A stretch of DNA of 64,000 nucleotides. It comes from an uncultured Candidatus Saccharibacteria bacterium. GTDB taxonomy: Bacteria > Patescibacteriota > Dojkabacteria > J137. The stretch's first letter is position 1; the number at the start of each line of letters is the position of its first letter. This document shows, piece after piece, positions 18,707 through 44,212 of the stretch. The translations under genes and the position numbers were made by a program. The notes beneath the pieces are model-generated. The model was given only the letters and a program-made list of their open reading frames with translations. It was not told the DNA's origin and did not search any database. The stretch lies in NCBI GenBank assembly GCA_965230975.1, contig OZ246402.1, positions 1,056,859 to 1,120,858 of the forward strand, read 5' to 3'.

Positions 18707-18845
18707 GTTGCCGAATTTATAAGGAAAGTATAAAATCGGGATATTGTTAGGACAAAGCTAACAATTTGAGTACGAGGCCACGTTGTGGCACTAATGCGCC
18801 AATATGATTTTGCTACACTAACATTTGCAAAATCATTGGCTTATT

Positions 18846-18918
18846 GAGCAGTTAGCTCAGCTGGTAGAGCGCTCCCTTGACGTGGGAAAGGTCACAGGTT
18901 CGATCCCTGTACTGCTCA
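18846..18918 (+). tRNA. tRNA-Val (anticodon GAC), no encoded CCA
   Basis: Acceptor GAGCAGU/ACUGCUC with discriminator A. D-arm GCUC-AGCUGGUA-GAGC. Anticodon loop UUGACGU. T-arm ACAGG-UUCGAUC-CCUGU. Confidence 0.8.
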
Positions 18919-18996
18919 TTAAATCAAGAATTATGCAAAAGAAATGCAGCAGAATTCTATTGATTTAACGAGTGCAGCTTGTCTGCCTCATTAAAA

Positions 18997-19038: not shown

Positions 19039-19077
19039 ATAGTGTCGCTAGTCCACCTAATTCAACCGCAAATTATC

Positions 19078-19803
19078 ATGAACACAGGATCCCCCTTTAA
19101 ATACCCTATCTCACAAAAAATATTTTATGGTGATGATGAGTTTCATATAAAAGTATTCAACATTATAGAATCTCCTGAAAAGTATCTAATTAGAAGAGTC
19201 CGAATTCCCCCCAATTCAGAAGAATTGCTATTAAGAAAACTATTGGTTGCACAAAAAGCATTTCTTGAGCTTGGCGAATTTGGATTACTTTTACCTAAAT
19301 TCCAAATTATAAAAGCTTGGCTTCCAAAAGATAGAGAGCCTAGTTTTATGATTTTAACCGAGATAATTAAAGGGTATTCACTCCCTATGTTAGAAGTTAT
19401 CGAGAAAAATCAACAAGAGGTGCATAACACCATTACTAATTGGCTTATAAACTTAATCACTTATACCCAATTCAAATACACCCAAAATGGAGACTATCCA
19501 TCTGATCTCTTACCACATCAATTTGTTTTTGGGGAAAATAATGAAGGGCAAAAGGGCGTGTATTGGGTAGATTTAGATCCTATAACAGAATTACTTAACC
19601 ATGATATTTACGGCTCTATTGAAATTTTTTTAGAAAGATATTTAGGATTTATAGTAATTCGTATACTTGATTTTGAACAAAGGACGAGTCTGACATTAAC
19701 CCAGGCTAGAGAACATTTAGAAACATTTTTTCAAGTACTAGAAACAAATAGTGAGTATAAAGAGTTAGTTCAATTACATAAAGGATATTTGTCTAAAGGT
19801 TAA
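19078..19803 (+). CDS. protein-kinase-like-fold protein, paralogue 1
   Basis: Start placed at ATG (MNTGSPFKYPI), which matches the paralogue start MNSQSPFRYPI. VYWVDLDP is a DFG-like Mg-binding segment. Confidence 0.4.
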   Translation: MNTGSPFKYPISQKIFYGDDEFHIKVFNIIESPEKYLIRRVRIPPNSEELLLRKLLVAQKAFLELGEFGLLLPKFQIIKAWLPKDREPSFMILTEIIKGYSLPMLEVIEKNQQEVHNTITNWLINLITYTQFKYTQNGDYPSDLLPHQFVFGENNEGQKGVYWVDLDPITELLNHDIYGSIEIFLERYLGFIVIRILDFEQRTSLTLTQAREHLETFFQVLETNSEYKELVQLHKGYLSKG

Positions 19804-19879
19804 TACTTACAACTTACGCTAATAAAATGCATCTAAATAACTATATATGATAATATCCATCTATCTTTAGATTTAACTA

Positions 19880-20611
19880 ATGAATTCACAATCGCCCTTT
19901 AGGTATCCAATAGAGGATCAACCTTTTAAAATTTCCCCAAAAGCTAAAAAGTTCTTTAATGTATTGAAAAGCCCTAACGCGAAATTGCTTAGGTTAGTTT
20001 ACGATGCTCCAGATTACGATACAGAATCTGATATACAATCTATATTAGAAATTTATCAAGAAATGCTTGTATTTATTAATATACCGAAAATTTTTATAAT
20101 AAAAACTAAATTAGAACAAGATGATGCGCCACATGGGAGTTATGTTTTTATTACAGAGATTATTAATGGAGAGTGTATTGAAAATATTGATTTTCAAATA
20201 ATAAATAAAAATGAATTTATACAGGCAATGTCAAAATTTCTTATTGAATTAATCGACTATATAAACTACAAACACATAGTAGGTGGAGCCTTCTTAATAG
20301 ATGTAAAACCTGATGCATTAATGTATGGTGCAAATGAAGCGGGAGTTAAGGGGATTTATTTTATAGACTGGACACCTCTTATGGATTACATTGATAATGA
20401 TGATAAAGATGCAGTCGAAGGGTTTATTGATTACTATTTAAACTTTATAAAAAACCGAATAGATTATTACGAAAGAAAATTTAAGTGCTCTTTTAACGAT
20501 GTAAGAATACATCTATTGCCATTTATAAAAGTACTAGAAGAGGAGGGGTATCGTAAAAGATTTTTAGATAATATACGAGATGGATTTAAACTAAGCAAAC
20601 TTGAAAACTAG
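19880..20611 (+). CDS. protein-kinase-like-fold protein, paralogue 2
   Basis: FLIDVKPDALMYG is an HRDxKPxN-like catalytic loop. GIYFIDWTPL is a DFG-like segment. Shared N-terminus with the upstream paralogue. Confidence 0.4.
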   Translation: MNSQSPFRYPIEDQPFKISPKAKKFFNVLKSPNAKLLRLVYDAPDYDTESDIQSILEIYQEMLVFINIPKIFIIKTKLEQDDAPHGSYVFITEIINGECIENIDFQIINKNEFIQAMSKFLIELIDYINYKHIVGGAFLIDVKPDALMYGANEAGVKGIYFIDWTPLMDYIDNDDKDAVEGFIDYYLNFIKNRIDYYERKFKCSFNDVRIHLLPFIKVLEEEGYRKRFLDNIRDGFKLSKLEN

Positions 20612-21358
20612 CTACGACTCGTAATAGCTACTATTTTCCACCAAACCTATAATTTCGTAAAACGTTTCTTTATTAATATAAACTTCCGATTTATTAGATT
20701 GAAGAACCTTATAAAGACTTGACCTATAAAATCCATGTATTTCGCTTAAAACAAATTCAACACATTTTATAAATTGATCTAACAGACCACACCAATCCTC
20801 TTCAGATGAACATCTATAAGAAACCGATCTATTATTCTCAAAAAGCATAGCTCTATCAAAGTCAATTAACGATAAAAACAAAGATTGCCCATAAAAAATA
20901 GCTGTTATATTTCTTGCTAGAATATCTCCATGAGTAACAAAAAACTCTTTGGAATTAATTAATTGGGGATTATCTGATGGAGAAATTTTAATTGAATGAA
21001 AATATTCTAAGCTTCTTCCAAGATCCCTAAAAGCATTACATATATTTTGAATATTAAATCTTGGATCTGGATTCAACTCAAAACTTCGTATAAAATGGTC
21101 TATCCTCGTTCCCTTATAAGGCAAAAGAACAAATTTTAAGCCATTCCAATCAATAAAAGTTTTAATATGTGGCAAATGAGAATCATCAATTCGTTTCAAA
21201 ATTTCAAACTCATTGTTTTGATTCGAAATTCGCTTAATATAATACAGAATACCACTTGATTCATCGACCACTGGTGTTCCAAAAGCATAATAGTTATCTA
21301 GAATTTTTTTAACTTCTTCGATAAGAAAATCTTGCAACCCAGTATATTTATTTTGCAA
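20612..21358 (-). CDS. protein-kinase-like-fold protein (APH/atypical kinase)
   Basis: FVTHGDILARNI is an HGD catalytic loop. LIDFDRA is a DFD/DFG Mg-binding loop. Start is probably TTG. The stop abuts the stop of the convergent gene at 20611. Confidence 0.45.
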   Translation of the reverse strand: MQNKYTGLQDFLIEEVKKILDNYYAFGTPVVDESSGILYYIKRISNQNNEFEILKRIDDSHLPHIKTFIDWNGLKFVLLPYKGTRIDHFIRSFELNPDPRFNIQNICNAFRDLGRSLEYFHSIKISPSDNPQLINSKEFFVTHGDILARNITAIFYGQSLFLSLIDFDRAMLFENNRSVSYRCSSEEDWCGLLDQFIKCVEFVLSEIHGFYRSSLYKVLQSNKSEVYINKETFYEIIGLVENSSYYES

Positions 21359-21530: not shown

Positions 21531-23060
21531 ATGTTCAACTTTACACCAATTGCAGATGAAGCTAAGCATACAGCAGCCCATGTTTTAGCAGCCGCAGTAC
21601 TTAAAACTTTCCCTAAAGCAAAAATAGGAGTAGGCCCAGTTACTAAACAGGGCTTTTATTACGACTTTGAAATTGCAAGAAAAATCTCAGAAAAAGATAT
21701 AGAAAAAATCGAAAAAGAAGCTAATAAAATAAGAAAACAAGGCCATAACATGCAACAAATCTTTATGGATAAAGATGAAGCATTAAATATGGTATTACAA
21801 AGAGGCCAAATATACAAAGCCGAATTGCTAAAAGGCATTCCAGATCAAGATATAAGTTTTTACAAGCTAGATGACTTTATTGATTTATGCAGAGGCCCTC
21901 ATATAAAGAACACAAAAGAATTAGGACCAATCAAAATAGTAAAAGTAGAAGAATCCCATTGGCAAGATGATGAATCCAGGCCAATTTTACAAAGAATATA
22001 CGGGCTAACATTTGCATCAGAACCTGAACTCGAAGAATACTATCTTTTAAAAAAAGAAGAAAAGGAGAGAGATTACACGTCAGTTATAGAAAGAGATAAC
22101 TTGGGTAGAGTGGTTGGCAATAGCATGCTACTTAACGAAAGTGGTAGTCAACTTTTAGGCAAGATCGAAAAACTTATAAACTCCTATTTTTGGAATAACA
22201 GATTTACAGACATATATGTAAATAATGTAGATAATTTAGAAGAGCTTTTTGAGCACCTAGACACAGCATTTCAATACAAGATTAGAAGCCCAAGAGAATT
22301 CCCAATAACACTTAAATCTCAAGCATTTGTAGAGGACGATTTTTTAAACGAATCCACTCAACTTCATAGAGTTATTGCCGTTAAACAATATTTTACAACA
22401 CTCGATCTTTTTGAAAGAATGCCCTTAATAAACAGAATCGTGGACTTTTTTAAGGCATTAGATTTCGATTTAAGAGCAGAAATATTTTGCTCATCTGACA
22501 AAGACCCTTTTATAGAAGCACTTTCCAACATTTTGCAAAAAGATGGTGTTTCTCATACAAAAGTAGTTTCTCAATATAACCCAGATATTCGAATTAGATT
22601 TGTAGGTCACGATATACTAAATAGAAGCTGGAACATTTCAGAACTAATTATTAAACAAAATCAAAAATTTAAAAATTATAGAGACAATCTGAATGTAATA
22701 CACATGAATATTAACCCTTTTAGGGTACTTGCATATATTCTAGAAAATACAAAAGGTAAACTACCTAGAATACTATCTCCAAACGAGATTGTAATAATCC
22801 CTATTGGGAAGAAACACGCTGAATATGCACAAGCTGTAGCACAATTTGTAAATAACCTAGGGTATATCTCTTCTACAGATTTAACCTCAAAAAGCATTAA
22901 TAAGAAGGTTTTCTTGGCTAACAAAAAGAATTCTACATTACAAATAATTGTAGGGGATAAAGAGCAAACAACTAATAGTGTTTCTTTAAGACATTTAGAT
23001 AAAGATTTAGGCTTAATTAAACTAGAAGATCTAAGTATTAATTTAAGTAAAATTCTTTAA
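21531..23060 (+). CDS. threonyl-tRNA synthetase-like protein with a ThrRS N2/editing-like domain, a degenerate core and an anticodon-binding-like C-terminus
   Basis: N-terminus HTAAHVLAAAVLKTFPKAKIGVGPVTKQGFYYDFEI matches the ThrRS N2 region (HS.AH.L..A......K...GP....GFYYD). RIYGLTF matches RIYGTAW. C-terminus LPRILSPNEIVIIPIGKKHAEYAQAVAQFV...IIVGDKE resembles the anticodon-binding domain. Class II motifs 2 and 3 (HRNE, GFTQDD) are not found. It sits in the canonical thrS position upstream of infC-rpmI-rplT. Confidence 0.5.
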   Translation: MFNFTPIADEAKHTAAHVLAAAVLKTFPKAKIGVGPVTKQGFYYDFEIARKISEKDIEKIEKEANKIRKQGHNMQQIFMDKDEALNMVLQRGQIYKAELLKGIPDQDISFYKLDDFIDLCRGPHIKNTKELGPIKIVKVEESHWQDDESRPILQRIYGLTFASEPELEEYYLLKKEEKERDYTSVIERDNLGRVVGNSMLLNESGSQLLGKIEKLINSYFWNNRFTDIYVNNVDNLEELFEHLDTAFQYKIRSPREFPITLKSQAFVEDDFLNESTQLHRVIAVKQYFTTLDLFERMPLINRIVDFFKALDFDLRAEIFCSSDKDPFIEALSNILQKDGVSHTKVVSQYNPDIRIRFVGHDILNRSWNISELIIKQNQKFKNYRDNLNVIHMNINPFRVLAYILENTKGKLPRILSPNEIVIIPIGKKHAEYAQAVAQFVNNLGYISSTDLTSKSINKKVFLANKKNSTLQIIVGDKEQTTNSVSLRHLDKDLGLIKLEDLSINLSKIL

Positions 23061-23151
23061 TTAAAAACCATTACAAAGCATTATAATATTGCCTTATAGC
23101 AATACTTTTGCTATCATTGAAGGGTCTAAATTTTAACCAGAATACTAACTT

Positions 23152-23685
23152 ATCAAAATAGTTCGAAAAAGAGCAAAAGCTGCTCCACAAATACAAAATT
23201 ACGATGTTAACGAAAGAATACGTCTAAATAGTTTTGTAGTAATAGACGAAAATGGCGATAACCTAGGTCAATTAAATAAATTTGAAGCAATTCAAATTGC
23301 CAAAGAAAAAGAATTAGATTTAGTTTTGGTATCACCAAATCCAGAACATCCAGTTGCAAAAATAGTAGATTGGTCTAAATTTAAATACGAAAAAAGTAAA
23401 AAGGCTAGAAAAAATCAAAGCAAAAAAGTTGATAATAAAGAGTGGAAGTTTAGCCCTAAAATACAAGACAACGAAATTGAGTTTAAAATAAACCAAATTA
23501 AAAAGTTCTTAGAAAAAGAAGATGGAGTAGCAAAAATAACTGTCCATTGGGAAAGAAAAACTACCCCAGACATGCTTACTTCAACTTTTCAAAAAGTAAA
23601 GGCTAGGTTTGAAGAATTTGCAAAACCTGTAAGTGAAATGGCAAGAGAGGGCAAAAACTTAAGTATAATAATTAGAAAACTTTAA
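23152..23685 (+). CDS. infC: translation initiation factor IF-3 (non-ATG start, probably ATC/ATA)
   Basis: The reading frame extends upstream of the 23326 ORF-track start to a stop at 23146-23148. The N-domain is present (VIDENGDNLGQLNKFEAIQIAKEKELDLVLVSPNPEHPVAKIVDWSKFKYE). The C-domain is present (EIEFKINQIKKFLEKEDGVAKITVHWERK). No in-frame ATG lies at the N-terminus, consistent with the atypical infC start codons known in other bacteria. Confidence 0.75.
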   Translation: MKIVRKRAKAAPQIQNYDVNERIRLNSFVVIDENGDNLGQLNKFEAIQIAKEKELDLVLVSPNPEHPVAKIVDWSKFKYEKSKKARKNQSKKVDNKEWKFSPKIQDNEIEFKINQIKKFLEKEDGVAKITVHWERKTTPDMLTSTFQKVKARFEEFAKPVSEMAREGKNLSIIIRKL

Positions 23686-23728: not shown

Positions 23729-23938
23729 ATGAAGACATACAAATTAAAAACTCACAAAGGCACTGCAAAAAGGCTTAGAGTAACAGCTACGGGCAAAATA
23801 ATGAGAAAGAAAATGCAATTAAAAAACAATGCTCACCTTAAGAGCAAAAGAAAAGCATCTAGAAAATTAAATCCTGAATCTTTTGTTATTACATCTAAAG
23901 GTAATATTAAAAGAGTAAAAAGATTATTAAATATTTAA
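23729..23938 (+). CDS. rpmI: 50S ribosomal protein L35
   Basis: MKTYKLKTHKGTAKRLRVTATGKIMRKK matches the L35 pattern (K.KT..G.aKRf..T..GK). Basic, 69 aa. Position is between infC and rplT. Confidence 0.8.
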   Translation: MKTYKLKTHKGTAKRLRVTATGKIMRKKMQLKNNAHLKSKRKASRKLNPESFVITSKGNIKRVKRLLNI

Positions 23939-23959: not shown

Positions 23960-24301
23960 ATGAGAATTAAAAGAGGAACTACAAAAAATCAAAAACACAA
24001 AAAGATTTTAAAGCTTGCTAAAGGTTATAGAATGTCTTATAGCAAACTATACAGAAGAGCTAAAGAAGCAGTTAGACATGCTGGGCAATATAGTTACGCT
24101 CATAGACAACACAGAGGCGCTCAAATAAGAGAACAATGGATTGAAGTAATTTCTGCTGCATTAACTAAACACAATTTAAGTTACAGCAAATTTATAGGTG
24201 GCTTAAAAAAGCACAAAGTAGAGTTAGACAGAAAGGTATTAGCAGAGTTAGCGGTTTACCACCCAGCTCATTTTGATAGCGTTGTAGAAGCTACAAAATA
24301 A
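23960..24301 (+). CDS. rplT: 50S ribosomal protein L20
   Basis: MRIKRGTTKNQKHKKILKLAKGY...AGQYSYAHRQHRGAQIREQWIEVISAA...LSYSKFIGGLKK is highly L20-like. Confidence 0.85.
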   Translation: MRIKRGTTKNQKHKKILKLAKGYRMSYSKLYRRAKEAVRHAGQYSYAHRQHRGAQIREQWIEVISAALTKHNLSYSKFIGGLKKHKVELDRKVLAELAVYHPAHFDSVVEATK

Positions 24302-24327
24302 TAATCATAAACTTAAAACAATAGTAA

Positions 24328-24356
24328 AACCTCTCAATTAGTTGAGAGGTTTTTTT
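24328..24356 (+). terminator. rho-independent terminator after rplT
   Basis: aacctctcaa-ttag-ttgagaggtt (10-bp perfect stem) followed by ttttt. Confidence 0.8.
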
Positions 24357-24387: not shown

Positions 24388-25044
24388 ATGAAACACTGGG
24401 AATTTGAGGTTGATAAAGATTTAAATATTGACTTAGTTAACTTATCCGGCTTTGAATTTTTATATTATCTACTAAGACTAGAGTTAATAAATGCTGGCAG
24501 TACCGCTTTAATATTTTATGATAAAAATACAAATAATATTGTGCGATTTCATATTGACGATTCCATTAACTATAGATTAACTATCCTCTTCCTACAGATA
24601 TTAAAATATAAATATAAAAGTATTAAGAAAATACAAATCATACTAGACGATTTTACTAAAAGTCTGAGACATCAATTAGATGAGCCCATTACAGAATGCT
24701 CGAATTTAAGAATAAGGATAGAATACAATAACACTCACTTCGAAACCAATCCCGAACAATTTCTTCCAATAAATACTGCATTTACAGTAAATGGCAAAAT
24801 AGTAGCTTATACTATGAGGTTTGTTGATGGACAAACTTATTGGGAGTTACAGGAACTTTCAAGATCCCAATTACTTGATCCTAGTATTAAATTAAAAATA
24901 GACAATTATAATTTATATCAAGAAATCTTTGACCTTATAGGAGATGATCCCAATGTAAATACAATAAATGGAGCTACTATTAAAAACCTTGTAGGAAATA
25001 GGGGAAAAGACATTTATATAGACCTTTCCCCCGAAGAGTGCTAA
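24388..25044 (+). CDS. hypothetical protein
   Basis: 218-aa ORF; no motifs. Confidence 0.35.
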   Translation: MKHWEFEVDKDLNIDLVNLSGFEFLYYLLRLELINAGSTALIFYDKNTNNIVRFHIDDSINYRLTILFLQILKYKYKSIKKIQIILDDFTKSLRHQLDEPITECSNLRIRIEYNNTHFETNPEQFLPINTAFTVNGKIVAYTMRFVDGQTYWELQELSRSQLLDPSIKLKIDNYNLYQEIFDLIGDDPNVNTINGATIKNLVGNRGKDIYIDLSPEEC

Positions 25045-42976: not shown

Positions 42977-44212
42977 TTAGATTTCAGTAGGGAAAAACCT
43001 TATTGCTTCAACCACTGGAGATTCAGAGCCAGATCGACCCCAAGCAAAAACATACTTACTTGAAAAATTCACTTGTGATAAAAGATTTCTGGTACCATTT
43101 ACATCAAACAAAGAAAATATGTAACCAAAAGGAATATGCTTAAACCTTTCTGAATTTCCATTATTACCTACCAAAGCAATAATGTGTTTTTTCATTGCAG
43201 TTATAGTTGATTTTTTACTTGGTTCGATTTCATTTAGCACTTGATTTAAATAATCAGGTACTTTTGAAATAGGCATATTAAACAATTCCATGACTCTATC
43301 ATTACCTAACGCTTCCCAAAACTTTGTTAAGGCTTTTTTAAAGTCATGTTCAAACATGGTAAACCTATTAAGATTATTTCTTTCGATCTCTTCTGGAGTA
43401 CTTTCTGGGTTTAATTTTTTAAAACGTTCTTCTATACCATCAAATGCTTCGTTAAATAAACCATCTTCAACAGCTCGATAGATAGGTAATTTCCTTCCAA
43501 AATAAGAACCCAATGTTCTATCTTTAAAAGAGTTATATGTTAATTTTTCAGAAATAGCATGATTAACAACCCCTATAAACAAAGGTGTGATTATATTACC
43601 CCTAGCAGTTCTTGCTACTTCCACTTTACCTGGGACAGTTATTTGAGCTGACATCTCTTCTAGTAATTCAATATCTGACTCTTCTAAGTCACTTGCAAAA
43701 TTAGACCCTAGGCAAGATCTAACAAAAACACTAAGTTCTGTCTCTTCAAAACTAAAATCTGGATACTTTTCAATTAATTCATAAGCTTCCAAAAGCATTA
43801 ACTCATCTTGTGGGGTTTTGTTTCCTGATTCAAAGACTGATTCTACTTGTGTTATTAAGTAACTTTGCATTAATTTTGTATCTAGTTTTTCTAAAGACAT
43901 TAATGCTTGTAAATTTGCTTCGGACAAATATTGCAAAGCAGATCTGTATTCATCTGAAATTTTATTAGTGGTAAATACTTCTTCATCAAATTCAATTAAG
44001 ATATCTTGTAAATCATCTAATTCTCCTATCATTAATGTTTCTTCCTGCCTTCTTTTAAGCAACTCTATTTTCTGAGAAAGTTCAAGAGCAGAGATATCTG
44101 ATATTACTAATGGGTTTGAGGCATCTAAATTCTGTCTTATAACTGCTAACATAAAAATATTCGATTGAGACATTTGTGTAAGGATAATATTTAAAGTAGC
44201 CAATGTTACCAC
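42977..44212 (-). CDS. hypothetical protein
   Basis: 411-aa ORF; acidic N-terminal half; no motifs. Confidence 0.35.
   Translation of the reverse strand: MVTLATLNIILTQMSQSNIFMLAVIRQNLDASNPLVISDISALELSQKIELLKRRQEETLMIGELDDLQDILIEFDEEVFTTNKISDEYRSALQYLSEANLQALMSLEKLDTKLMQSYLITQVESVFESGNKTPQDELMLLEAYELIEKYPDFSFEETELSVFVRSCLGSNFASDLEESDIELLEEMSAQITVPGKVEVARTARGNIITPLFIGVVNHAISEKLTYNSFKDRTLGSYFGRKLPIYRAVEDGLFNEAFDGIEERFKKLNPESTPEEIERNNLNRFTMFEHDFKKALTKFWEALGNDRVMELFNMPISKVPDYLNQVLNEIEPSKKSTITAMKKHIIALVGNNGNSERFKHIPFGYIFSLFDVNGTRNLLSQVNFSSKYVFAWGRSGSESPVVEAIRFFPTEI

What the first reader, a model, noticed from the sequence alone, without database searches (positions are those of the whole stretch)
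21531..23060. ThrRS-like gene at the canonical thrS position lacks recognisable class II catalytic motifs and the TGS domain
The gene sits immediately upstream of infC-rpmI-rplT, as thrS does in most bacteria. The product starts directly with the N2/editing-like domain (HTAAHVLAAAV...GFYYDFEI...RIYGLTF). It ends in an anticodon-binding-like domain. The roughly 250-aa middle shows no HRNE (motif 2) or GFTQDD / motif 3 Arg signature. The editing-site HxxxH is altered to HxxxA. At 509 aa it is more than 100 residues shorter than a canonical ThrRS. This may be a highly divergent ThrRS or a pseudo-synthetase paralogue. Either would be notable in a reduced genome.
Basis: partly seen in the sequence, partly recalled or inferred. 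Interest (0 to 1): 0.55.

Follow-up and report, generated by a model that had tools for sequence, protein, structure and literature searches.

The report
Catalytically dead ThrRS kept for proofreading
In this candidate-phylum (Dojkabacteria) bacterium, the gene at the usual threonyl-tRNA synthetase position has lost its tRNA-charging site but keeps an intact proofreading domain and tRNA-anticodon-binding domain, so it most likely only removes serine wrongly attached to tRNA-Thr, and the enzyme that actually charges tRNA-Thr is still unidentified.

Summary
The ORF (21531-23060, +, 509 aa) is real and lies upstream of infC-rpmI-rplT. Profile, motif and structure analyses agree that the class II core fold survives but the active site is gone. 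The segment carrying the zinc-ligand Cys, the TQDDAH end of motif 2, the motif 2 Arg/Glu and the motif 1 Pro are deleted or replaced, and these positions are not conserved among relatives.

All six experimentally defined N2 editing residues are invariant in 55 relatives (H13, H17, K96, D118, C120, H124). The anticodon-binding domain is conserved. The whole gene, dead core included, is under strong purifying selection.

Synteny shows an orthologue decaying in place, not a paralogue. Some Dojkabacteria keep a canonical ThrRS at this locus, others a full-length form with degenerate motifs, others this shortened form.

Best reading: a tRNA-Thr-specific trans-editing factor (Ser-tRNA-Thr deacylase), a bacterial-type counterpart of the crenarchaeal ThrRS-ed. 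I found no publication describing it. The main gap is that the partner catalytic ThrRS was not located with the available tools. Absence of the TGS domain is ordinary in this neighbourhood.

The parts
21531..23060 (+). thrS-derived gene, 509 aa: N2 editing domain, degenerate class II core, anticodon-binding domain
   Evidence: ORF. Identical protein in 4 assemblies. AF2 model with pLDDT 91.9. Best fold matches are full-length bacterial ThrRS 1qf6/1nyq, TMq 0.69-0.72. pN about 0.09 against saturated pS when compared with the closest relative.
21531..22070 (+). N2 (ThrRS/AlaRS-type) editing domain, residues 1-180
   Evidence: Pfam tRNA_SAD E = 3.2e-12. Aligns to E. coli ThrRS 71-248 and S. aureus 73-280. 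49 near-invariant positions within residues 1-195, and mean pairwise identity 53.5% for residues 1-180.
21567..21581 (+). HXXXH editing motif (H13-T-A-A-H17), equivalent to E. coli H73/H77
   Evidence: Alignment to 1qf6. Invariant in 55 family members. Motif definition from PMC12003907 and PMC3592468.
21882..21902 (+). D118-L-C120-R-G-P-H124: the CXGXH editing motif plus Asp, equivalent to E. coli D180/C182/H186. K96 (21816-21818) is equivalent to K156.
   Evidence: Alignment to 1qf6. D118, C120, G122, P123, H124 and K96 are invariant in the family.
22071..22715 (+). Linker helix and degenerate class II core (residues 181-395). The fold is kept, but catalytic motifs 1-3 and the zinc site are lost.
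   Evidence: No Pfam tRNA-synt_2b. Deletions of the zinc-Cys segment and of TQDDAHIF. Motif 1 Pro lost in 49 of 55. Only 8 of 200 positions near-invariant. Sheet retained in the model. Core-plus-ABD ThrRS fragments align over about 395 columns at 15-18% identity. Family profile matches E. coli core residues 191-392, E = 4e-25. Length held at 202-227 aa.
22716..23057 (+). HGTP-type anticodon-binding domain (residues 396-509)
   Evidence: Pfam HGTP_anticodon E = 4.6e-11. Aligns to ThrRS ABDs. G475, E478, R487 and G494 invariant. pN 0.054.
23152..23685 (+). infC (IF3), downstream operon partner, with a non-canonical start codon (ATC or ATA near 23152-23160)
   Evidence: Translation from 23152 gives full IF3_N (E = 8e-25) plus IF3_C. 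The first ATG/GTG/TTG ORF (23326) lacks the N-domain.
23729..23938 (+). rpmI (L35)
   Evidence: ORF. PF01632 on the identical locus.
23960..24301 (+). rplT (L20)
   Evidence: ORF. PF00453 on the identical locus.
24326..24353 (+). Intrinsic-terminator-like hairpin closing the thrS-like/infC/rpmI/rplT unit
   Evidence: 12-bp stem followed by a T run. No + strand terminator-like site between 21531 and 24326.
18845..18919 (+). tRNA-Val(GAC), a synteny marker that sits directly upstream of the thrS-like gene in other Dojkabacteria

Best explanation
The gene is the orthologue of the bacterial thrS of a Dojkabacteria (CPR/WS6) lineage. It has permanently lost aminoacylation and is kept as a tRNA-Thr-specific proofreading enzyme.

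Proposed mechanism:
1. The C-terminal anticodon-binding domain docks tRNA-Thr. This is inferred from a conserved ThrRS-type ABD.
2. The catalytically dead class II core acts as a rigid spacer, and possibly a dimerisation scaffold, holding the ABD and the N2 domain in the ThrRS geometry. The fold, its constant length and purifying selection are shown. The spacer role is inferred.
3. The 3' end of a mischarged Ser-tRNA-Thr enters the N2 pocket, where the invariant H13/H17/K96/D118/C120/H124 site hydrolyses the ester. Residue conservation is shown. Activity is inferred from E. coli ThrRS and from the Anabaena T1-SYY mutant.
4. A separate ThrRS that lacks adequate editing charges tRNA-Thr. It may act as a free enzyme or as a heterodimer partner. 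This step is inferred, and the partner was not found.
For: Loss of synthesis:
- No tRNA-synt_2b domain, and TIGR00418 scores at about half its cut-off.
- The zinc-Cys segment, motif 2 R/E, TQDDAH and motif 1 Pro are deleted or replaced, and those positions are unconserved across 55 relatives.

Retained editing:
- HXXXH and CXGXH plus the K156/D180 equivalents are invariant.
- N2 is the most conserved region (53.5% mean identity against 24.4% for the core).

Retained tRNA module: Pfam HGTP_anticodon, with invariant G475/E478/R487/G494.

Still a folded, selected protein:
- pLDDT 91.9, with ThrRS as the best fold match.
- The family profile still detects the E. coli core.
- pN is 0.05-0.10 against saturated pS in all three regions.
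- Core length is constant at 202-227 aa.

Orthology and a graded series:
- A canonical form (P0140, GCA_016932045.1), full-length degenerate forms (P0098, P0058, OLB20) and short forms (P0001, P0009, P0011) occupy the same locus.
- About 70 clusters at 50% identity have intact editing motifs but only 0-5 of 7 catalytic residues.

Precedents:
- Crenarchaeal ThrRS-cat/ThrRS-ed (PMC7373986, PMC3592468).
- Anabaena T1-SYY lacks synthetic activity but edits Ser-tRNA-Thr made by T2 in trans and forms heterodimers with T2 (PMC4787780).
Against: - No catalytic ThrRS partner was located. There is none in the 64-kb window.
- There is none within 10 kb of the gene in six other Dojkabacteria loci (contexts).
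- No P0056-like ThrRS (52% identity or more) lies on any family-bearing contig, judged by contig-length fingerprint, including four 1.11-1.19 Mb contigs. This negative is weak, because only the top 120 hits are listed and whole genomes could not be read.
- Motif 1 is degenerate, so dimerisation is uncertain.
- Part of the ABD motif common to relatives (KIRxAE) has diverged in this protein's sub-lineage (KKVFLAN).
- No biochemical data exist.
Confidence: 0.68

Rival explanations
1. It is a deacylase or tRNA-handling protein with a different or broader substrate than Ser-tRNA-Thr. Examples are general Ser/Gly/Ala-tRNA clearance as done by AlaX, or quality control under a particular stress. It would use the ThrRS scaffold only as an RNA-binding platform.
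For: The N2 domain belongs to the same superfamily as AlaX/AlaRS editing domains, and NCBIfam AlaXM and alaS give weak hits on residues 11-141. Part of the ABD motif has drifted in this sub-lineage. The partner ThrRS was not found.
Against: The editing residues are those of ThrRS N2, including the K156 and D180 equivalents. The ABD is ThrRS-type and its best matches are ThrRS ABDs. AlaXM scores 54 bits against a cut-off of 300. Dojkabacteria AlaRS genes nearby carry their own tRNA_SAD editing domain.
Confidence: 0.13
2. It is a non-enzymatic pseudo-synthetase, for example a regulator of the infC-rpmI-rplT operon or of its own mRNA (as E. coli ThrRS represses thrS translation), or a tRNA-Thr chaperone or sequestering protein.
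For: The gene appears to be co-transcribed with infC-rpmI-rplT, since no terminator precedes 24326. It keeps both RNA-binding modules. The thrS autoregulation precedent is from my own knowledge, not from a tool.
Against: A purely binding role would not require invariance of all six catalytic editing residues over a divergence down to about 30% identity. No tRNA-like or known leader RNA was detected in the window.
Confidence: 0.1
3. It is still the cell's ThrRS, with a radically remodelled active site.
For: It occupies the canonical thrS position. No second ThrRS was seen. In this protein, H391 and R398 align with the E. coli zinc ligand H511 and motif 3 R520.
Against: The segment carrying the zinc-ligand Cys and the TQDDAH strand are deleted, motif 2 Arg/Glu and motif 1 Pro are gone, and H391/R398 are not conserved beyond the 5 closest relatives. 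Only 8 of 200 core positions are near-invariant, and none is an Arg/Lys/His candidate for ATP or amino-acid binding. Related genomes show a stepwise decay series typical of lost function.
Confidence: 0.04
4. It is a pseudogene, or a decaying remnant on its way to loss.
For: Catalytic motifs are lost and the core is about 70 aa shorter.
Against: The intact ORF of constant length occurs in at least 55 clusters at 90% identity, and about 70 clusters at 50% identity (short plus longer degenerate forms) show the same pattern. pN is much lower than pS in every region. The fold is predicted with high confidence. The editing site is invariant.
Confidence: 0.02

Closest known systems
Crenarchaeal ThrRS-ed (Ser-tRNA(Thr) hydrolase, NCBIfam NF011500), which works with ThrRS-cat
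   Same: Same logic. A ThrRS-derived protein without aminoacylation activity keeps an editing domain and a tRNA-binding C-terminal part, and clears Ser-tRNA-Thr made by a separate editing-less ThrRS (PMC7373986, PMC3592468). There is a weak sequence match over the C-terminal region (residues 366-487, E = 3.8e-4).
   Different: The editing module is unrelated. ThrRS-ed uses the archaeal DTD-like domain, whereas this protein uses the bacterial N2 (HXXXH/CXGXH) domain. NF011500 scores 19.5 bits against a cut-off of 362. The host is a bacterium. The gene is the in-place orthologue of the ancestral bacterial thrS. The partner ThrRS-cat has not been identified here.
Canonical TGS-less bacterial ThrRS of Dojkabacteria/Patescibacteria (e.g. 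P0140, P0056; about 585 aa)
   Same: Same locus and neighbours. Same domain order: N2, class II core, ABD. N2 is about 50% identical. Same overall fold.
   Different: The canonical forms keep 7 of 7 catalytic residues and pass Pfam tRNA-synt_2b. This protein keeps 0-1 of 7, has five deletions in the core (18, 11, 8, 12 and 9 aa), and fails tRNA-synt_2b and the TIGR00418 cut-off.
Anabaena apo-T1 / T1-SYY in the duplicated T1/T2 ThrRS system
   Same: A bacterial N2-bearing ThrRS subunit without synthetic activity edits, in trans, the Ser-tRNA-Thr produced by a second, editing-poor ThrRS, and can heterodimerise with it (PMC4787780).
   Different: In Anabaena the inactive state is conditional (zinc loss) or engineered, and T1 is otherwise a complete enzyme. 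Here the loss is permanent, genetic and lineage-wide, with the active site deleted.
AlaX free-standing editing proteins
   Same: Same editing-domain superfamily and the same zinc-type motifs, and they act in trans (PMC12003907).
   Different: By my recollection AlaX proteins are small editing-domain proteins without a synthetase core or an HGTP ABD, and they act on Ser-tRNA-Ala. AlaXM scores 54 bits against a cut-off of 300.

Membership tests
Threonine--tRNA ligase (ThrRS, TIGR00418 / EC 6.1.1.3) | Class II catalytic core recognised by Pfam tRNA-synt_2b (PF00587) | tested here: not met
   Only tRNA_SAD and HGTP_anticodon are found, even at E <= 10. All 55 family members lack PF00587 in the precomputed annotation.
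Threonine--tRNA ligase (ThrRS, TIGR00418 / EC 6.1.1.3) | Score at or above the curated equivalog cut-off of TIGR00418 | tested here: not met
   196.8 bits against a cut-off of 383.65. The best stretch covers only residues 12-195.
Threonine--tRNA ligase (ThrRS, TIGR00418 / EC 6.1.1.3) | Class II motif 2 Arg/Glu (E. coli R363/E365) and the FTQDDAH strand (D383, zinc ligand H385) | tested here: not met
   R-x-E is replaced, TQDDAHIF is deleted, and the positions are unconserved in the family.
Threonine--tRNA ligase (ThrRS, TIGR00418 / EC 6.1.1.3) | Zinc ligands Cys334/His385/His511 (E. coli numbering, from my own knowledge of the 1qf6/1evl literature) | tested here: not met
   The Cys-bearing segment (..KPMNC) and the first His are deleted. 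H391 aligns with H511 in this protein but is not conserved in the family.
Threonine--tRNA ligase (ThrRS, TIGR00418 / EC 6.1.1.3) | Motif 3 Arg (E. coli R520) and motif 1 Pro | tested here: not met
   R398 aligns with R520 only in this protein and 4 close relatives. Motif 1 Pro is lost in 49 of 55 members, and is Asn here.
Threonine--tRNA ligase (ThrRS, TIGR00418 / EC 6.1.1.3) | Overall ThrRS fold and domain order (N2, core, ABD), and position upstream of infC-rpmI-rplT | tested here: met
   Foldseek top hits are 1qf6/1nyq, E about 1e-39, TMq 0.69-0.72. Synteny.
Threonine--tRNA ligase (ThrRS, TIGR00418 / EC 6.1.1.3) | Thr activation and tRNA-Thr aminoacylation activity | not testable with these tools
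   Needs ATP-PPi exchange and charging assays.
N2-type ThrRS/AlaRS editing domain (tRNA_SAD superfamily) | HXXXH and CXGXH motifs (PMC12003907); H73/H77 pivotal (PMC3592468) | tested here: met
   H13-TAA-H17 and C120-RGP-H124 align to E. coli H73/H77 and C182/H186. Invariant in 55 of 55.
N2-type ThrRS/AlaRS editing domain (tRNA_SAD superfamily) | Additional ThrRS editing residues K156 and D180 (E. coli; from my own knowledge of the Dock-Bregeon and Waas/Schimmel work) | tested here: met
   K96 and D118 align to them and are invariant.
N2-type ThrRS/AlaRS editing domain (tRNA_SAD superfamily) | Hydrolysis of Ser-tRNA-Thr but not Thr-tRNA-Thr | not testable with these tools
   Needs deacylation assays.
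Crenarchaeal ThrRS-ed (Ser-tRNA(Thr) hydrolase, NF011500) | Archaeal DTD-like editing domain, and a score at or above the NF011500 cut-off | tested here: not met
   NF011500 scores 19.5 bits against a cut-off of 362 and matches only residues 366-487. The N-terminal domain is bacterial N2, not DTD-like.
Crenarchaeal ThrRS-ed (Ser-tRNA(Thr) hydrolase, NF011500) | Co-occurrence with a separate, editing-less catalytic ThrRS (ThrRS-cat) in the same genome | tested here: inconclusive
   None in the window or in 10-kb flanks of six loci. None among the top 120 relatives of a canonical Dojkabacteria core by contig fingerprint. Whole genomes could not be scanned.
AlaX free-standing editing proteins (NF040865 AlaXM) | Stand-alone editing domain without synthetase core or ABD, and a score at or above the cut-off | tested here: not met
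   54 bits against a cut-off of 300. This protein has a core-fold domain and an HGTP ABD.

The most novel reading that the evidence does not exclude
The short-form and degenerate-form Dojkabacteria have no conventional ThrRS anywhere in their roughly 1.1-1.2 Mb genomes. Thr-tRNA-Thr would then be made by a non-homologous or unrecognisably diverged enzyme, or supplied through the host relationship, with this protein as the surviving proofreader of that unknown route.
Probability: 0.08. Interest if true: 0.95.

Novelty: new variant of a known kind. Interest (0 to 1): 0.64.

Why it matters
If this is right, it is the first bacterial-type (N2-domain) example of a synthetase permanently reduced to a tRNA-specific trans-editing factor. 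It would be a convergent mirror of the crenarchaeal ThrRS-cat/ThrRS-ed split.

Related genomes preserve a natural decay series: canonical enzyme, then loss of zinc ligands, then loss of the ATP motifs, then deletions. That series shows the order in which a class II active site erodes while editing stays under selection.

It argues that Ser/Thr proofreading is indispensable even in about 1.2 Mb symbiont-like genomes.

It poses a directly testable question: which enzyme charges tRNA-Thr in these organisms, and why does it lack editing?

It has a practical consequence too. Annotation pipelines label some of these proteins 'threonine--tRNA ligase' (P0058, P0068, and the JGI names). That can make a genome look complete for ThrRS when the labelled gene cannot charge tRNA.

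Tried and rejected
Searching for the catalytic partner:
1. phmmer and a canonical-ThrRS HMM against all six-frame ORFs of the window found only the gene itself.
2. The same HMM on 10-kb flanks of Dojkabacteria loci L006, L007, L008 and L012 found only the thrS-like gene and AlaRS.
3. A large protein search with the core plus ABD of the nearest canonical relative (P0056), read against the contig-length fingerprints of family-bearing genomes, gave no match. It did show that some Dojkabacteria keep a canonical ThrRS.
4. Contexts of P0057, P0061 and P0088 showed ordinary thrS-infC loci of unrelated bacteria.
5. The single genome-contig scan was largely wasted.
6. tblastn against plasmids, to obtain an archaeal-type ThrRS seed, returned only bacterial thrS and Klebsiella plasmid fragments.
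7. No available query had a realistic chance of placing an unknown-type partner among the 120 listed hits.

Other checks that led nowhere:
- tRNA-Thr identity elements: no tRNA-Thr gene in the window or in the fetched Dojkabacteria loci.
- A T-box or other leader RNA: none at Rfam gathering thresholds.
- Eight searches of the paper library (PMC open-access and bioRxiv full text) found no description of this protein class in CPR bacteria.

Rejected ideas:
- A mis-called start hiding a TGS domain: there is a stop 6 codons upstream.
- An assembly artefact: the identical protein occurs in 4 assemblies.
- 'Three paralogous inserted ORFs' upstream: only two are paralogous.
Full report
**The object.** The window is AT-rich, about 31% G+C. 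The ORF at 21531-23060 (+) encodes 509 aa and lies directly upstream of infC, rpmI and rplT. The identical protein, with the same neighbours, occurs in four independent public assemblies, so it is not an assembly artefact. A stop codon lies 6 codons upstream of the ATG, so no N-terminal domain is hidden by a mis-called start.

**Profile searches.** Pfam finds only tRNA_SAD (residues 108-157, E = 3.2e-12) and HGTP_anticodon (420-492, E = 4.6e-11). It finds no tRNA-synt_2b and no TGS, even at E <= 10. NCBIfam thrS (TIGR00418) scores 196.8 bits against a curated cut-off of 383.65, and its best stretch covers only residues 12-195. Against PDB sequences, residues 11-215 align with the N2 domain and linker of S. 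aureus and E. coli ThrRS, and residues 396-500 align with their anticodon-binding domains. Residues of about 200-395 are unmatched by single-sequence search.

**The family.** A search of 5.8 billion protein clusters returns 55 clusters of 501-555 aa with the same two-domain Pfam pattern. Identity to the query falls as low as 29%. Every member that carries an organism name is Candidatus Dojkabacteria, formerly WS6, a CPR lineage.

I aligned these with canonical ThrRS and tabulated the key positions:
- The editing motifs HxxxH and D-x-C-R-G-P-H are unchanged in all 55.
- The zinc-Cys motif (KPMNCPGH), motif 2 (YRYE and RVRGFTQDDAHIF) and motif 3 (HRAxxGSxERF) are absent.
- Those catalytic positions are not conserved even within the family.

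The alignment shows that the active site is excised, not merely mutated:
- A segment of about 30 aa ending in ..KPMNC is deleted.
- The octapeptide TQDDAHIF is deleted.
- The HR of motif 3 is deleted.
- Two further core segments of 12 and 9 aa are deleted.

The class II motif 1 proline is lost in 49 of 55 members. It is kept in 30 of 31 canonical sequences.

H13-T-A-A-H17 is itself the HxxxH motif and aligns with E. coli H73/H77. The published definition of the N2 site is HXXXH plus CXGXH, with the Cys essential (PMC12003907; PMC3592468). Here these are H13/H17 and C120/H124. The equivalents of E. coli K156 and D180 (K96, D118) are also present, and all six residues are invariant in the family. 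Absence of TGS is not unusual, because 22 of 31 canonical relatives in the alignment are also under 600 aa, the length class whose members lack the TGS family PF02824. In this protein H391 and R398 do align with the zinc ligand H511 and motif 3 R520. They persist only in its 5 closest relatives, so they look like remnants.

**Is the middle a remnant or a domain?** An AlphaFold2 model built on a 90-sequence alignment is confident, with mean pLDDT 91.9 and pTM 0.80. It keeps a large antiparallel sheet in residues 259-394. Foldseek against the PDB puts full-length bacterial ThrRS first (1qf6 and 1nyq, E about 1e-39, TMq 0.69-0.72). Core-plus-ABD ThrRS fragments align over about 395 columns at only 15-18% identity. 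A profile of the family also detects the E. coli catalytic fragment by sequence, from profile positions 323-516 to chain residues 191-392, E = 4e-25. So the middle is a trimmed ThrRS class II core.

Conservation by region:

| Region | Residues | Near-invariant positions | Mean pairwise identity |
|---|---|---|---|
| N2 | 1-195 (positions), 1-180 (identity) | 49 of 195 | 53.5% |
| Core | 196-395 (positions), 181-395 (identity) | 8 of 200 | 24.4% |
| ABD | 396-509 | 11 of 114 | 37.4% |

The core's length is nevertheless held at 202-227 aa. Against the closest relative (84% identical), non-synonymous divergence is 0.10, 0.095 and 0.054 in N2, core and ABD. Synonymous sites are saturated, at pS 0.58-0.87. 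The whole protein is therefore under purifying selection. The core is constrained as a structure, not at catalytic residues.

**Orthologue, not paralogue.** The block MurB-MutL-DUF192-ClpP-tRNA-Val-[ThrRS-like]-infC-rpmI-rplT-(pheS-pheT)-PBP1 is shared by three kinds of genome:
- Those with the short form: this window, P0011 and P0009.
- Those with a full-length form whose catalytic residues are degenerate: P0098 in GCA_021463645.1, P0058, and WS6 OLB20.
- In looser form, a Dojkabacteria genome with a fully canonical ThrRS: P0140 in GCA_016932045.1.

An exhaustive HMMER search of 1.84 billion cluster representatives, followed by residue classification, gives about 33 short clusters and about 35 longer ones (549-594 aa). 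Nearly all have intact editing motifs but only 0-5 of 7 catalytic residues, and they rank ahead of the 7-of-7 canonical enzymes. In some intermediates the zinc ligands are gone while motif 2 R/E and motif 3 R remain (P0274, P0276). That suggests the order of decay: zinc site, then ATP motifs, then deletions.

**Mechanism.** Shown:
- The synthetic site is lost.
- The N2 catalytic constellation is intact.
- The ABD is a conserved ThrRS type.
- The ThrRS architecture is retained.
- Purifying selection acts on all parts.

Inferred: the protein binds tRNA-Thr through the ABD. The dead core then holds N2 in the right geometry, so that N2 hydrolyses Ser-tRNA-Thr made by another, editing-poor ThrRS.

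Two precedents support this. Crenarchaeota split the job between ThrRS-cat and ThrRS-ed. In Anabaena, a zinc-site mutant of T1 with no synthetic activity retains full editing, clears the Ser-tRNA-Thr made by T2 in trans, and heterodimerises with T2.

The gene appears to be co-transcribed with infC-rpmI-rplT, because the only + strand terminator-like site follows rplT at 24326-24353. No T-box or other known leader RNA was found.

**The gap.** I could not find the catalytic partner:
- It is not in the window.
- It is not within 10 kb of the gene in six other Dojkabacteria loci (for L006, L007, L008 and L012; Pfam gene contexts for the others).
- No protein at least 52% identical to the canonical Dojkabacteria core lies on any family-bearing contig, including four contigs of 1.11-1.19 Mb.

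These negatives are weak, because the tools list only the top hits and cannot read whole genomes. Dojkabacteria are known to have acquired an archaeal-type TyrRS (PMC5370408), so an archaeal-type or otherwise foreign ThrRS is plausible. This remains untested.

**Comparison and novelty.** The protein works like the crenarchaeal ThrRS-ed but is not a member of that family. Its editing domain is the unrelated bacterial N2 type, and NF011500 scores 19.5 bits against a cut-off of 362. It is ThrRS by descent and fold but fails every catalytic membership criterion. It is not AlaX. Eight full-text literature searches found no description of a catalytically dead, N2-bearing ThrRS in CPR or other bacteria. 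I therefore rate it a new variant of a known kind.

My confidence by claim:

| Claim | Confidence |
|---|---|
| No aminoacylation activity | about 0.93 |
| Editing-competent | about 0.8 |
| Full trans-editing model with an unidentified partner | about 0.68 |

Noticed in passing
window 23149-23685: infC is annotated mechanically as a 119-aa ORF starting at TTG 23326, but the frame is open from 23149. Translation from 23152 gives a complete IF3_N (E = 8e-25) plus IF3_C. The real start must be a non-canonical codon (ATC at 23152 or ATA at 23158). This fits the unusual-start autoregulation known for infC, which I recall from my own knowledge.
   Followed up: partly
window 19042-21358: Three ORFs without Pfam hits lie between tRNA-Val(GAC) and the thrS-like gene. 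In other Dojkabacteria loci (L006, L007, L008, L012) the tRNA directly precedes the gene. The first two ORFs (19042-19803 and 19880-20611) are paralogues (31% identity, E = 2e-33). The third (20612-21358, minus strand) is unrelated and contains a kinase-like HGD...N...DFD pattern, seen by eye only.
   Followed up: partly
window 24388-25044; L006, L007, L093: In Dojkabacteria with canonical or full-length degenerate thrS, pheS-pheT lie downstream of rplT: directly after it in L006 and L007, and after three intervening genes in L093. In the short-form lineages (this window, L008, L096) pheST are absent from this position. In the window an unannotated 218-aa ORF sits there instead.
   Followed up: no
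proteins P0274, P0276, P0272, P0273, P0290: Some 570-593 aa relatives have lost some or all of the three zinc ligands but keep one or more of the motif 2 Arg/Glu and motif 3 Arg residues. They may be intermediates in the decay, or enzymes with altered amino-acid specificity. A few others (P0284, P0296, P0349) have lost the editing motifs as well.
   Followed up: no
proteins P0058, P0068 and JGI-named P0011, P0013, P0015: Public annotation names catalytically degenerate members 'threonine--tRNA ligase' or 'threonyl-tRNA synthetase'. Others are named 'His/Gly/Thr/Pro-type tRNA ligase C-terminal domain-containing protein' or 'hypothetical protein'. Genome-completeness or pathway calls that rely on these names would wrongly count a ThrRS.
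   Followed up: no
plasmid collection: Several hundred Klebsiella and E. coli plasmids carry a ThrRS fragment covering only about 60% of the core-plus-ABD query (39.6% identity). It is annotated as threonine--tRNA ligase or as a TGS domain-containing protein. This is unrelated to the finding.
   Followed up: no
window 42977-44212 (minus strand): A 411-aa ORF gives a sub-threshold Pfam hit to vRNAP_dom_2, a virion DNA-directed RNA polymerase domain (E = 2.5e-4, 21.7 bits against a cut-off of 27). It may be a prophage or phage-derived gene.
   Followed up: no
L006 1536-3533; L007 1776-3674: Dojkabacteria AlaRS genes about 8 kb upstream of the thrS locus are short (632-665 aa), with tRNA-synt_2c plus tRNA_SAD. 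They presumably lack the C-terminal C-Ala domain.
   Followed up: no
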